Assembly (NCBI RefSeq): GCF_003334255.1
Contig: NZ_QOWU01000040.1
Direction: 5' to 3' (one strand)
From: Escherichia coli
GTDB taxonomy: Bacteria; Pseudomonadota; Gammaproteobacteria; Enterobacterales; Enterobacteriaceae
DNA: 49,174 bases
Under the pieces are notes generated by a model. The model was not told the DNA's origin. It did no database searches and worked only from the letters and a program-made list of their open reading frames with translations. Shown here piece after piece: positions 1 to 4,087 of this stretch; position 1 is the stretch's first letter; each line of letters begins with the position of its first letter. A program made the position numbers and the translations under genes.

Positions 1-8
1 CGTGTCAG

Positions 9-90
9 TGGTGGCGCATTATAGGGAGTTATTCCGGCCTGACAAGAGGAAATTTAAAATAATTTTCTGACCGCGCATTTTTTATTCTTT
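9..90 (-). promoter_or_regulatory. rrnA P1: rRNA operon P1 promoter (rrnA P1) with UP element; transcription proceeds leftward out of the window
   Basis: Minus strand reads AGAAAATTATTTTAAATTTCCTCTTGTCAGGCCGGAATAACTCCCTATAATGCGCCACCACTGACACG. The -35 TTGTCA is at 40..45, the 16-bp spacer follows, the -10 TATAAT is at 18..23, then the GC-rich discriminator GCGCCACC and an initiating A near position 9. The AT-rich UP element lies at about 46..70. This matches the canonical rrn P1 architecture; hemG lying immediately upstream fits rrnA. Confidence 0.85.
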
Positions 91-94
91 ATGC

Positions 95-640
95 TTATTT
101 CAGCGTCGGTTTGTCGGTTAAATGGGCGATTTCTCGGGCGAAATTCGCCACCTGCTCCCAATCGGTATAGACAACTTCTTTGCGCGTATCCGTTTCACCG
201 CCTGACATCTTCATAATCAGCTTGATCATAAAACGGTCGTACCAGCGATAACGTGGGTAACGCAGCGCCCCGGCAATGACCGCGCAGCGATCGGGACGCC
301 ATTGCGAGTTCATCAGAAACTTGCGCGCGTAGCTGTTGGTCTGTGGAGTACGCTTCTCCGGTTTGCGCGCCACCAGATTCACGGAGTAAAAGGCGCTCGG
401 CATCGAATTCAGCCGCGTCGCATGTTTTTTGACAAATTCCTGGAACGCTGAATGGTAGTGACCATAGCGAATAGAAGCACCAATGACCACACGGTCATAG
501 TTTTCCCACTGTGGTTCTTCAATGCGGTGCACATTGGCGACATCCGCCTGGATCCCCAGTTCTTTCAGTTCCGAAGCCAGGTAGGAGGCAATCTCGCGCG
601 TTTGTCCGTCCCTTGTTGAGAAAAGAATTAATGTTTTCAC
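95..640 (-). CDS. hemG: Protoporphyrinogen IX oxidase, flavodoxin-like, menaquinone-dependent
   Basis: 181-aa ORF starting [22 protein letters not shown], recognised as HemG; flavodoxin-like N-terminus. Confidence 0.95.
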
Positions 641-651
641 GTATTACTCCA

Positions 652-2103
652 TCATTCACGCCAGAAAGTCGGGGTAAAGAGCACCAGCAATGTAAAGACC
701 TCGAGACGACCAAACAGCATGTTGGCAATCAGGATCCATTTAGCCACCGGGTTCATACTGGTAAAGTTATCAGCAACCACGCCAAGCCCTGGCCCCAGGT
801 TATTCAATGTCGCAACAACCGACGCAAAGGCAGAAAAGTCATCCACGCCCGTGGCGATAATCGCCAGCATACTGACAATAAACACCAATGCATAGGCGGA
901 GAAAAATCCCCAAACGGCTTCGAGGATACGTTCCGGCAGTGCGCGATTCCCCAGCTTAATGCTATAGACGGCGTTCGGATGCACCAGTCGTTTCAGCTCA
1001 CGGTTCCCCTGCTTAAACAGCAGCAGGATGCGGATCACCTTCAGGCCACCGCCCGTTGACCCGGCGCAACCGCCGATAAAGGCTGAACATAAAAGCAGTA
1101 CCGGCAAAAAGAGCGGCCAGCGGGCAATGCTGTCAGTTGTAAACCCGGCGGTTGTCGCCATCGACACCACCTGGAAAAACGCCTGGTTAATTGTCATCAG
1201 CGCCGAACTGTAGACATTATGAAACCACAGTACGAGGGTACAAATAACCACCAGCGTAAACTGTACGCCGATAAACATGCGAAATTCCGGATCGCGCCAA
1301 TAAACCTTCAGACTACGCCCACTTAACAGTGAAAAGTGCAGACCGTAGTTACAGCCGGAGATCAGCAGGAAGATAGCAATGATAGTGTTAATAGTCGGGC
1401 TATCGAAATAACCGATACTGGCATCATGTGTCGAGAAGCCGCCAATAGCGATAGTCGCAAAGCTATGGCCGATGGCATCAAAGGCATCCATTCCGGCAAA
1501 CCACAACGCCAGCGCACAGGCGACGGTCAGCAAGACATAAATCAACCACAGGGTTTTCGCCGTTTCCGCAATTCGCGGGCGCATTTTGTTATCTTTCAGC
1601 GGGCCGGGCATTTCTGCGCGATAGAGCTGCATCCCACCCACGCCGAGGATAGGCAGTATCGCAACCGCCAACACGATGATCCCCATCCCGCCAAACCATT
1701 GCAGCATCTGGCGATAAAAGAGGATGGCGTGAGGGAGCGAATCCAGCCCCACCAGCGTAGTGGCTCCCGTAGTGGTCAGGCCAGAGAAAGATTCAAAAAA
1801 CGCATCGGTAATCGTGAGGTTCGGGCTTTCCGAGAAGATAAAAGGGAGCGCACCGACGCTACCCAGCACGGTCCAGAACAGCACCACTATCAGAAACCCC
1901 TCACGGGATTTAAGTTCGCCTTTCTCTTTGCGGTTCGGCCACCACAGCATAGAGCCAATGGCGAGGGCGACAAAAAAGGTCTGGGTAAAAGCGCGGCCCG
2001 CTCCATCCCGGTAGATGAGTGCTACCAGCCCAGGGATAATCATGGTCCCTGAAAATAAGATGACCAGTAGTCCAACGATTCGGGTAATGGCGCGAAAATG
2101 CAT
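652..2103 (-). CDS. trkH: Trk-system potassium uptake protein
   Basis: 483-aa polytopic membrane ORF recognised as TrkH; only 11 bp separate it from hemG, so the two are probably co-transcribed. Confidence 0.95.
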   Translation of the reverse strand: MHFRAITRIVGLLVILFSGTMIIPGLVALIYRDGAGRAFTQTFFVALAIGSMLWWPNRKEKGELKSREGFLIVVLFWTVLGSVGALPFIFSESPNLTITDAFFESFSGLTTTGATTLVGLDSLPHAILFYRQMLQWFGGMGIIVLAVAILPILGVGGMQLYRAEMPGPLKDNKMRPRIAETAKTLWLIYVLLTVACALALWFAGMDAFDAIGHSFATIAIGGFSTHDASIGYFDSPTINTIIAIFLLISGCNYGLHFSLLSGRSLKVYWRDPEFRMFIGVQFTLVVICTLVLWFHNVYSSALMTINQAFFQVVSMATTAGFTTDSIARWPLFLPVLLLCSAFIGGCAGSTGGGLKVIRILLLFKQGNRELKRLVHPNAVYSIKLGNRALPERILEAVWGFFSAYALVFIVSMLAIIATGVDDFSAFASVVATLNNLGPGLGVVADNFTSMNPVAKWILIANMLFGRLEVFTLLVLFTPTFWRE

Positions 2104-2756: not shown

Positions 2757-4087
2757 CACGCCAGTTTCAGATCCCGGGTCATGTTTTCCACGTTGTTTTC
2801 GTGGATCACCACGTTGTCTTCGATACGAATGCCGCCGAACGGTTTCAGTGCTTCAATTTTCTGCCAGTTGAAGTGCTTGCTGAACTGCCCTTCACGCCAC
2901 GGTGCCAGTAGCGATTCGATGAAGTAGATACCCGGTTCGATGGTTAACACCATGCCCGGCTGGAGAATACGGGTGCAGCGCAGGTACGGATATTTTGCCG
3001 GTGCCGCGAGGTGCGTACCGCTATCATCCTGCATAAAACCAGCGACGTCATGCACCTGCAGGCCCAGCGGATGGCCGATACCATGCGGCATAAACGGCCC
3101 GGTAAGATCGTTTTCGACCATCGCTTCTTCACTCATATCGGTGATGATTTGATGTTTACGCAGCAGTTTGGCGATGCGCTGATGGAACTGGATGTGGTAA
3201 TCCACATAGCTGACGCCTGCTTTCATGGTGGCGATCAGCGCCAGTTGTTCATCATTAACGTCCTTCACCAGCTGCGCGTAGTCGTTGTCACTTTTTGCCG
3301 ACCAGGTACGGGTCAGGTCAGCCGCATAGCCGTTATATTCTGCCCCGGCATCCAGCAGGAAGCTGCGCATCTCTTCCGGTGCCTGATGGTCCAGTTTGGT
3401 GTAATGCAGTACCGCAGCGTGTTCGTTAAGCGCCACAATGTTGCTGTAAGGTACGTCGGTATCACGATGACCGGTCGCGGTCAGATAGGCAATGTTGATA
3501 TCGAACTCGCTCATGCCAGAACGGAACGCTTCTTCTGCCGCGCGGTGACCGTTGACCGCCATTTTCTGCGCTTCACGCATACAGGCCAGTTCGTACTCAG
3601 TTTTGAAGGAGCGATAGTAATGCAGGTAGTCGATAACCCCTTTCGGGTTGATGTTGCTGGCCTCAATACCCAGTTGCAGCGCACGTTCCGGCACCGGACC
3701 GATATAACCGATATTGCCGCGCGCAGCAGGCAGCAGGCTACCAATGCCATCGGCTTTCGGCAGCGCGATCACTTCCACATCTTCAGTCCAGAAAGAGGTC
3801 GGCAGCGGTTCGACGTTGTGCCAGTAATCAACCGGCAGATAGAACCACAGTTTCGGCTTGTTCACGCCATCCACCAGCAACCAGCAGTTTGGCACCTGAG
3901 TTACCGGCACCCACGCTTTGAATTGCGGGTTCACTTTAAACGGATAGGGATGATCGTCGAGAAAAACATTGAACAGCTCGCCGGAGTGAATAAGTAACGC
4001 ATCCAGCTTGAAGCGCGCCAGCGCATCGCGAGTCCGTTCTTGTAAGGTAGCTATATGATTTTTATAGAGCGAGGCCAGTGATTCCAT
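2756..4087 (-). CDS. pepQ: Xaa-Pro dipeptidase (prolidase)
   Basis: 443-aa ORF recognised as PepQ (M24 metallopeptidase). Confidence 0.95.

What the first reader, a model, noticed from the sequence alone, without database searches (positions are those of the whole stretch)
1..200. rRNA P1 promoter at the left edge, with upstream activator region running into the hemG 3' end
The minus strand of positions 9..70 is a textbook rrn P1 core promoter with UP element, so an rRNA operon begins immediately left of the window. The hemG stop codon is at 95..97. Fis sites of rrn P1 promoters normally extend to about -150, which here would fall inside the last codons of hemG. One sequence would then serve both as coding sequence and as promoter upstream activation region, and the hemG-trkH operon would be transcribed into the rrn promoter in the same direction.
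Basis: partly seen in the sequence, partly recalled or inferred. Interest (0 to 1): 0.4.

Follow-up and report, generated by a model that had tools for sequence, protein, structure and literature searches.

The report
rrnA P1 promoter overlapping hemG's end
This is the well-studied Escherichia coli rrnA ribosomal RNA promoter P1; its upstream Fis-activator region runs into the last codons of the neighbouring hemG gene, an arrangement that is already known in outline, although the comparison across 80 species shows that those codons are shaped by the promoter as well as by the protein.

Summary
The minus strand of window 1..70 is the E. coli K-12 rrnA P1 promoter: -35 TTGTCA at 45..40, -10 TATAAT at 23..18, start A at 9 and UP element at 49..69. 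It is 100% identical to MG1655, where 16S rRNA begins 292 nt downstream. The hemG stop codon is at 95..97, which is -88..-86.

A published Fis consensus recovers exactly the three footprinted rrnB P1 sites. In rrnA it finds site I at -71 (intergenic) and sites inside hemG at -111, -123 and -136.

In 80 other Enterobacteriaceae, hemG is always followed by an rrn P1, with no net indel. Third codon bases that coincide with critical Fis positions are almost invariant although the amino acids vary: C at -104 in 79/81 and G at -98 in 78/81. Leu174 is fixed on the rare codon TTA.

This indicates phased Fis-type sites at -71, -91 and -111. No terminator lies between hemG and P1, so read-through is plausible but was not shown.

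The layout is not unique. murI ends at -82 of rrnB P1, so two footprinted Fis sites lie inside it, and gmhB ends at -77 of rrnH P1. The feature is already known, the added detail is modest, and interest is low.

The parts
9..9 (-). rrnA P1 transcription start (+1, A). Promoter coordinate c maps to window position 9-c.
   Evidence: The position follows the 8-nt discriminator GCGCCACC after the -10 hexamer. The sequence is identical to rrnB P1. The start-site assignment comes from established knowledge of rrnB P1.
10..17 (-). GC-rich discriminator GCGCCACC
   Evidence: Sequence. At least 90% conserved in the loci that reach it.
18..23 (-). -10 hexamer TATAAT
   Evidence: It sits at the same offset (617 nt from the hemG start codon) in 65/65 sequences that contain it.
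40..45 (-). -35 hexamer TTGTCA with a 16-nt spacer
   Evidence: 11/12 match.
49..69 (-). UP element (-40..-60), AGAAAATTATTTTAAATTTCC
   Evidence: Identical to the rrnB P1 UP element. An A/T-rich block is conserved across species.
73..87 (-). Fis site I, GAATAAAAAATGCGC, centred at -71 (window 80), intergenic
   Evidence: 5/5 critical and 11/11 consensus positions, at the same position as the footprinted rrnB site I. Across species: G-7 81/81, R-3 81/81, C+7 78/79.
93..107 (-). Fis-like site GACGCTGAAATAAGC centred at -91 (window 100). It covers the hemG stop codon and the last three codons.
   Evidence: 4/5 critical positions in E. coli and 5/5 in 43% of species. G-7 78/81 although it is the third base of a hypervariable codon; W0 80/81, Y+3 79/81, C+7 81/81.
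113..127 (-). Fis-like site GCCCATTTAACCGAC centred at -111 (window 120), inside hemG codons 172-176
   Evidence: 5/5 critical and 10/11 consensus positions. It is the second-best conserved consensus match of 565 positions tested. C+7 is the third base of codon 176 and is C in 79/81 with amino-acid entropy 3.06 bits. Leu174 is TTA in 67/81.
125..152 (-). Further consensus matches seen in E. coli at -123 (window 125..139) and -136 (window 138..152), inside hemG
   Evidence: 5/5 critical positions in E. coli. Across species, the critical base that falls on a free third codon position is not conserved for -123 (C+7 17/81), and the central W is only 53% for -136. These remain candidates only.
95..640 (-). 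hemG CDS (protoporphyrinogen IX dehydrogenase, 181 aa), stop TAA at 97..95 = -88..-86
652..2103 (-). trkH CDS, 11 nt upstream of hemG, co-directional

Best explanation

Mechanism, by analogy with rrnB P1 and tyrT:
- RNA polymerase sigma-70 holoenzyme uses the near-consensus -35 and -10 hexamers with a 16-nt spacer and a GC-rich discriminator.
- The alpha C-terminal domains bind the A/T-rich UP element at -40..-60.
- A Fis dimer at site I (-71) contacts alpha-CTD and activates transcription.
- Further Fis dimers at about -91 and -111, 20 bp apart and so on roughly the same helix face, add to activation or stabilise a bent upstream loop.

hemG ends at -86, so everything upstream of site I lies in the hemG reading frame. 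The last 5-10 codons of hemG are in effect translated promoter DNA. Their amino acids and the stop codon position drift between species (176-183 aa, stop at -101 to -80). The DNA register and the Fis-critical bases stay fixed.

hemG and trkH are transcribed towards P1 with no intrinsic terminator in between, so weak read-through into the rrn leader is likely.

What is shown here: promoter identity, gene order, consensus matches, cross-species nucleotide constraint, and absence of a hairpin terminator. What is inferred: actual Fis occupancy at -91 and -111, their contribution to activation, and read-through.
For: Identity and context:
- 100% identity to MG1655, and annotation hemG-16S-tRNAIle-tRNAAla-23S.
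- The P1 sequence is identical to rrnB P1 from -64 to +9.

Fis scan:
- The consensus GnnnRnnWnnYnnnC (PMC2885671) returns rrnB sites at -71, -102 and -143, exactly the published footprint centres. One extra 5/5 match at -201 is weaker (9/11 consensus positions).
- In rrnA it gives -71, -111, -123, -136 and -222.
- Matches with 5/5 critical and at least 10/11 consensus positions occur at 0.9 per kb in the window. There are 3 in 170 bp here (Poisson P = 5e-4, threshold chosen post hoc).

Cross-species comparison (80 species; 81 sequences with the window):
- hemG is followed by an rrn P1 in every locus that reaches it, with no net indel from the hemG ATG to the -10 in 65/65. By contrast, the 11-nt trkH-hemG spacer varies from 10 to 12 nt.
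- Of 35 codon columns with variable amino acids in trkH plus hemG, the two with the lowest third-base entropy are hemG 176 (0.19 bit) and hemG 178 (0.23). The next lowest is 0.84. These bases are C+7 of the -111 site and G-7 of the -91 site.
- Leu174 is the most codon-conserved of 76 Leu columns and the only one fixed on TTA, a codon used for 9% of Leu in these columns.
- For other in-frame consensus matches, the critical base on a third codon position is only 21-59% conserved.

Literature:
- Fis binds 3-5 sites at each rrn P1, and the rrnA number was confirmed by gel shift (PMC4696680).
- tyrT has cooperative Fis sites at -71, -91 and -122 (PMC2885671).

No terminator: (z +0.57).
Against: - No binding data were produced here, and the primary footprinting paper (Hirvonen et al. 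2001) could not be read, so the exact experimental rrnA site positions are unverified.
- Fis consensus predictions are known to be unreliable. In PMC2885671, predicted guaB sites were not bound and an unpredicted site was.
- The -91 site lacks the -3 purine in E. coli and in 53% of species.
- Four of the five critical bases of the -111 site lie on first or second codon positions, so protein conservation explains them.
- 4-fold degenerate sites in hemG codons 129-172 show no reduced variability (mean 1.53 vs 1.45 bits, p = 0.63). The constraint is therefore local, and there is no sequence evidence for sites between -125 and -150.
- The species are phylogenetically related, so the counts are not independent.
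Confidence: 0.8

Rival explanations
1. Only site I (-71) is a functional Fis site. The consensus matches and conserved bases inside hemG reflect protein coding, codon preference or phylogenetic inertia, and the hemG 3' end has no promoter function.
For: - Site I is dominant at all rrn P1 promoters (Hirvonen 2001 abstract, from memory).
- Most critical bases of the -111 site are fixed by the amino acids A-H/Q-L-T.
- 4-fold sites show no general constraint.
- Fis predictions are unreliable (PMC2885671).
Against: - Third bases of the hypervariable codons 176 and 178 are 96-98% conserved, while 4-fold sites elsewhere are near saturation (mean 1.45 bits). They are the two extreme outliers of 35 variable codons.
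- The rare TTA codon is fixed at Leu174.
- There are no indels over about 100 nt that include a non-conserved protein tail.
- The literature reports at least 3 Fis sites on rrnA (PMC4696680), and only one fits downstream of hemG.
Confidence: 0.12
2. The conserved bases at -112..-98 serve another DNA-binding factor of the rrn upstream region (H-NS or Lrp), or intrinsic DNA curvature, rather than Fis.
For: - H-NS SELEX binding is reported for the rrnA, rrnB and rrnH promoters, and Lrp and H-NS bind rrn P1 upstream regions (PMC4696680, PMC5110994).
- The region is A/T-rich with A-tracts.
Against: The conserved signal is a G and a C exactly 14 nt apart, flanking an A/T core, seen twice and in 20-bp register with site I. 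That is the Fis signature, not the A/T-only preference of H-NS. The two readings do not exclude each other.
Confidence: 0.06
3. The conserved nucleotides act at the RNA level, for example as a hemG mRNA 3'-end structure, a terminator or a processing signal.
For: The region is at the 3' end of an mRNA.
Against: - There is no stable fold: -32.9 kcal/mol against a shuffle mean of -35.1, z +0.57; and -7.5 kcal/mol, z -1.25 for the 51-nt gap.
- RNAalifold on 26 species predicts zero pairs.
- The clpB-rrnG gap, by contrast, has a clear terminator at -20.3 kcal/mol, z -4.85.
Confidence: 0.02

Closest known systems
E. coli rrnB P1 promoter with UP element and Fis sites I-III (-71, -102, -143)
   Same: The core promoter, discriminator and UP element are identical from -64 to +9. 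Fis site I is at the same position, -71. A co-directional upstream gene (murI) ends at -82 without a terminator, so rrnB Fis sites II and III also lie in coding sequence.
   Different: The upstream sequence is unrelated beyond -64. Candidate distal sites in rrnA are at -91 and -111 (20-bp spacing), not -102 and -143.
tyrT promoter upstream activating sequence (Fis sites at -71, -91, -122)
   Same: Site I is at -71 and a second site lies 20 bp upstream at -91. At that spacing tyrT sites bind Fis cooperatively (PMC2885671).
   Different: The third site is at -111 rather than -122. In rrnA the sites overlap a protein-coding gene. Cooperativity was not tested.
E. coli rrnH P1 / gmhB junction
   Same: The co-directional CDS ends at -77 with no hairpin before P1. 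There is a Fis consensus at -71 and further matches inside the CDS at -122, -130, -134 and -173.
   Different: The core promoter variant differs (TTGTCT -35, different spacer). Cross-species constraint was not examined.

Membership tests
Enterobacterial rrn P1 promoter | Near-consensus -35 and -10 hexamers with a 16-nt spacer and a GC-rich discriminator GCGCC(A/T)CC | tested here: met
   TTGTCA-16-TATAAT-GCGCCACC, identical to rrnB and rrnC P1.
Enterobacterial rrn P1 promoter | A/T-rich UP element at -40..-60 | tested here: met
   AGAAAATTATTTTAAATTTCC, identical to the rrnB P1 UP element.
Enterobacterial rrn P1 promoter | Lies about 290 nt upstream of a 16S rRNA gene, with a P2 promoter about 120 nt downstream | tested here: met
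   In MG1655 the P1 start is 292 nt before 16S. P2 is TTGACT-16-TATTAT, beginning 84 nt downstream of the P1 start. Rfam SSU rRNA scores 1578 bits. Both lie off the window to the left.
Enterobacterial rrn P1 promoter | Fis site I centred at -71 | tested here: met
   GAATAAAAAATGCGC matches 5/5 critical and 11/11 consensus positions at -71. G-7 and C+7 are conserved in at least 78/81. This is sequence evidence only.
Fis-dependent upstream activator region with multiple sites | Additional Fis sites upstream of site I that are bound by Fis | not testable with these tools
   Consensus and conservation support sites at -91 and -111. The literature states 3-5 sites per rrn P1, with the rrnA number confirmed by gel shift (PMC4696680). 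The paper with the footprint positions is not held.
Fis-dependent upstream activator region with multiple sites | Sites phased on one face of the helix relative to site I | tested here: inconclusive
   Centres at -71, -91 and -111 give 20-bp steps, about 1.9 turns. This resembles tyrT -71/-91 but is not an exact multiple of 10.5 bp.
Dual-use (coding plus regulatory) sequence | Nucleotide-level constraint in a CDS beyond what the protein requires | tested here: met
   The third bases of codons 176 and 178 are conserved at 96-98% while the amino acids vary. Leu174 is fixed on rare TTA. The signal is local only, with no general 4-fold constraint.
Read-through from the upstream operon into rrn | Co-directional upstream genes with no terminator before P1, and transcripts that cross the junction | tested here: inconclusive
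   The orientation is as required and no hairpin terminator is present. Rho-dependent termination and actual transcripts were not testable.

The most novel reading that the evidence does not exclude
The C-terminal tail of HemG (about codons 175-181) is not maintained for the protein. It is the rrn upstream activator region read through by the ribosome. Selection acts on Fis-critical nucleotides and on exact helical register: there are no indels in 80 species, while the stop codon wanders between -101 and -80. The same embedding in rrnB/murI and rrnH/gmhB may limit how strong those promoters can be, since they are the three weakest of the seven in PMC4696680.
Probability: 0.5. Interest if true: 0.35.

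Novelty: already known. Interest (0 to 1): 0.2.

Why it matters
rrn P1 promoters are the strongest and best-studied bacterial promoters. That rrnA P1 sits directly behind hemG and is activated by several Fis sites is established and annotated, so the finding adds no new kind of element.

The cross-species analysis adds a clear small example of overlapping codes. A few synonymous or tail-codon positions of hemG are held by promoter function, and the gene's stop codon slides within a fixed regulatory register. This matters in practice for anyone recoding, deleting or tagging the 3' ends of hemG, murI or gmhB, because such edits would alter rRNA operon promoters. It also matters for models of synonymous-site neutrality.

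Tried and rejected
- Primary literature. I tried to read the footprinting papers for rrnA (Hirvonen 2001 by DOI and PMC100122; Nachaliel 1989, PMC335215). None is held. Full-text searches for the rrnA site sequences, for 'rrnA P1' with Fis, for hemG with rrnA, and for murI with rrnB P1 gave nothing specific.\n- General synonymous constraint over the hemG 3' third. The raw third-position entropy dip disappears for 4-fold sites once amino-acid composition is controlled (p = 0.63). Only 2-fold sites show a modest drop (p = 0.004). I therefore rejected a broad constraint and kept the local one.\n- The -123, -136 and -222 consensus matches as conserved sites. Their free third-position critical base or central position is not conserved.\n- An RNA structure or terminator explanation. 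Rejected.\n- The terminator scan tool. It missed the obvious clpB terminator, so absence of a terminator rests on folding rather than on that scan.\n- A positive control on murI across species (footprinted sites II and III).

Full report
**1. What is in the sequence**

Read on the minus strand, window 70..1 is TCAGAAAATTATTTTAAATTTCCTCTTGTCAGGCCGGAATAACTCCCTATAATGCGCCACCACTGACACG. The sigma-70 scan gives TTGTCA-16 nt-TATAAT at 45..18. That is 11 of 12 matches and the best hit in 2.2 kb.

The hemG ORF occupies 95..640 on the minus strand (181 aa, GTG start, stop TAA at 97..95). trkH occupies 652..2103 on the minus strand.

Window 1..700 is 100% identical to E. coli K-12 MG1655 and is present in all 5,426 complete E. 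coli genomes. In the annotated MG1655 record, hemG is followed by 16S rRNA, tRNA-Ile, tRNA-Ala and 23S rRNA, which is the rrnA operon. Rfam confirms the 16S at 1578 bits.

I place the start at the A after the 8-nt discriminator GCGCCACC, following the established rrnB P1 assignment. The promoter start is then window position 9, and promoter coordinate c equals window position 9-c. The 16S begins 292 nt downstream, and P2 lies off the window. The hemG stop codon is at -88..-86.

**2. Context among the seven K-12 rrn P1 promoters**

I fetched all seven promoter regions and placed the nearest upstream gene in promoter coordinates.

| Operon | Upstream gene | Orientation | Gene end | Terminator before P1 |
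|---|---|---|---|---|
| rrnA | hemG | co-directional | -86 | none |
| rrnB | murI | co-directional | -82 | none |
| rrnH | gmhB | co-directional | -77 | none |
| rrnG | clpB | co-directional | -152 | yes |
| rrnC, rrnD, rrnE | yieP, yrdA, purH | divergent | beyond -189 | not applicable |

The clpB-rrnG terminator folds at -20.3 kcal/mol with z = -4.85. The hemG, murI and gmhB gaps have no significant hairpin: -7.5, -7.2 and -2.7 kcal/mol.

rrnA, rrnB and rrnC are identical from -64 to +9. The published rrnB Fis sites II and III (-102 and -143; PMC2885671) therefore lie inside murI.

**3. Fis consensus scan**

The published 15-bp consensus is Gnn(c/t)(A/g)(a/t)(a/t)(T/A)(t/a)(t/a)(T/c)(g/a)nnC, with critical positions -7, -3, 0, +3 and +7 (PMC2885671).

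Applied to rrnB, requiring 5/5 critical positions returns -71, -102 and -143, exactly the footprint centres, plus one weaker hit at -201. The crude scan therefore has some validity here.

In rrnA it returns five sites:
- -71, GAATAAAAAATGCGC, 11/11, intergenic.
- -111, GCCCATTTAACCGAC, 10/11, inside hemG.
- -123, 9/11, inside hemG.
- -136, 7/11, inside hemG.
- -222, 11/11, inside hemG.

The background in the whole 49-kb window is 9.3 matches per kb for 5/5, and 0.9 per kb for 5/5 with at least 10/11. Three of the latter in 170 bp gives Poisson P of about 5e-4, and five of the former gives P of about 0.02. The thresholds were chosen after seeing the data. The same paper warns that Fis predictions often fail experimentally.

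**4. Cross-species test**

One scan of 100,044 species genomes with HemG returned 80 Enterobacteriaceae loci at 73-99% protein identity. They include Escherichia, Salmonella, Citrobacter, Enterobacter, Klebsiella/Raoultella, Kosakonia, Buttiauxella and Cedecea.

In every locus that extends far enough, hemG is followed by an rrn P1. Most draft contigs break a few hundred bases later, as expected at an rRNA repeat.

The -10 hexamer is at exactly the same offset from the hemG start codon (617 nt) in 65 of 65 sequences, so there is no net indel. By contrast, the 11-nt trkH-hemG spacer varies from 10 to 12 nt. The hemG stop codon itself moves: proteins are 176-183 aa, and the last stop base lies between -101 and -80.

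Because the alignment is gapless, each column can be read in promoter coordinates.

| Site centre | G-7 | R-3 | W0 | Y+3 | C+7 |
|---|---|---|---|---|---|
| -71 | 81/81 | 81/81 | 81/81 | 68/81 | 78/79 |
| -91 | 78/81 | 38/81 | 80/81 | 79/81 | 81/81 |
| -111 | 81/81 | 81/81 | 81/81 | 63/81 | 79/81 |

The -71 site also keeps an A-tract core. At -91 several genera carry a perfect site, for example GCCCGTTTAATGGGC.

The decisive point is where these bases fall in the reading frame.
- C+7 of the -111 site is the third base of codon 176. Its amino acid is hypervariable (S, G, D, N, R, A, V, H, I, C, P; entropy 3.06 bits), yet the codon is NNC in 79/81.
- G-7 of the -91 site is the third base of codon 178 (S, stop, T, P, A, L, M, Q), which is NNG in 78/81.
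- Among the 35 codon columns of trkH plus hemG with amino-acid entropy of at least 1.5 bits, these two have the lowest third-base entropy, 0.19 and 0.23 bits. The next lowest is 0.84.
- Among 632 non-Met/Trp columns, only 18 have entropy of 0.23 or below. All the others sit at amino acids that are invariant or nearly so.
- Leu174, which supplies the A/T core of the -111 site, is TTA in 67/81. It is the most codon-conserved of 76 conserved Leu columns and the only one fixed on TTA, which accounts for 9% of Leu codons in those columns.

There is also an internal control. I scored all 565 possible centres across hemG and the spacer. The two best conserved consensus matches are -71 and -111. For the other in-frame matches (-382, -325, -222, -594, -366, -123), the critical base that falls on a third codon position is only 21-59% conserved.

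**5. Limits of the constraint**

Conserved 4-fold sites in hemG codons 129-172 are as variable as the background (mean 1.53 vs 1.45 bits, p = 0.63). Conserved 2-fold sites are modestly less variable (0.58 vs 0.78, p = 0.004).

The evidence therefore supports a local dual-use segment from about -118 to -84. It does not support a blanket constraint out to -150. The E. coli matches at -123 and -136 get no independent support. The sequences are related by descent, and I did not run a phylogeny-aware test. Saturation at neighbouring 4-fold sites argues against simple inertia.

**6. Rival explanations**

An RNA-level explanation is rejected.
- The 180-nt hemG 3' end through P1 folds no better than shuffles (z +0.57).
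- RNAalifold on 26 diverse species predicts no pairs.

H-NS or Lrp binding (PMC4696680, PMC5110994) is not excluded and may coexist. However, a G and a C 14 nt apart around an A/T core, repeated in 20-bp register with site I, is the Fis signature.

The reading 'only site I matters' is hard to reconcile with the literature statement that each rrn P1 carries 3-5 Fis sites, with the number for rrnA confirmed by gel shift (PMC4696680, citing Hirvonen 2001). Only one 15-bp site fits between the UP element and the hemG stop. I could not read Hirvonen 2001 or the older rrnA UAS papers, so the experimentally mapped positions remain unchecked.

**7. Mechanism**

By analogy with rrnB P1 and tyrT (established knowledge; PMC2885671, PMC4696680), alpha-CTD binds the UP element and Fis at -71 contacts alpha-CTD. 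Upstream Fis dimers at about two-turn spacing add activation or cooperative binding. tyrT has sites at -71, -91 and -122.

hemG and trkH transcription runs towards P1 with no intrinsic terminator, so low-level read-through into the rrn leader is likely. It would be quantitatively trivial beside P1 output. This step is inferred only.

**8. Verdict**

The feature is the known rrnA P1 promoter, and the coding/regulatory overlap is shared with rrnB/murI and rrnH/gmhB.

The new element is modest. It is a clean comparative signature showing that a few hemG tail positions and the exact register are held by promoter function while the stop codon drifts.

Novelty: already known. Interest: about 0.2.

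Noticed in passing
window 2077..2100 (minus strand; trkH codons 2-9): Third bases of trkH codons 2-9 are almost invariant in 78 Enterobacteriaceae (entropy 0.10-0.27 bit against a median of 1.20). This suggests a 5'-end synonymous constraint from translation initiation or an overlapping signal.
   Followed up: no
L001, L002, L007 (the rrnA, rrnB and rrnH P1 regions of MG1655): The three rrn P1 promoters whose activator region is embedded in a co-directional CDS without a terminator are rrnA/hemG, rrnB/murI and rrnH/gmhB. They are the three weakest of the seven in PMC4696680 (E>G>C>D>B>A>H) and the only three with H-NS SELEX binding there. With n = 7, chance probability is about 1/35.
   Followed up: partly
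window 176..196 (minus strand; hemG codons 149-155, -187..-167): The two-fold codons GAA149, GAT151, AAA154 and GAA155 are less variable across species than the background (p = 0.004). No conserved Fis consensus match lies there, so this is unexplained.
   Followed up: partly
L006 455..505 (minus strand; clpB-rrnG gap): The terminator scan reports nothing, yet the sequence has an obvious hairpin followed by a U-run (-20.3 kcal/mol, z -4.85). The tool lets the stem absorb the T-run, so its negatives are unreliable.
   Followed up: yes
L040, L066, L068, L070, L071, L076, L081, L085, L087 (about 3118..3123): The Buttiauxella and Cedecea-type loci carry TATACT instead of TATAAT as the rrn P1 -10 hexamer, at the same offset.
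   Followed up: no
L008-L087, 3' ends of loci: Most draft-genome contigs stop 30-400 nt after hemG. This is the usual assembly break at an rRNA repeat. It confirms hemG-rrn synteny indirectly, but it limits downstream comparison.
   Followed up: yes
window 95..127 and L008-L087 at 3026..3052: The hemG stop codon sits at five different positions (proteins of 176, 177, 180, 181 and 183 aa) in a DNA segment that has no indels. In 183-aa versions the ORF ends at -80, directly abutting Fis site I.
   Followed up: yes
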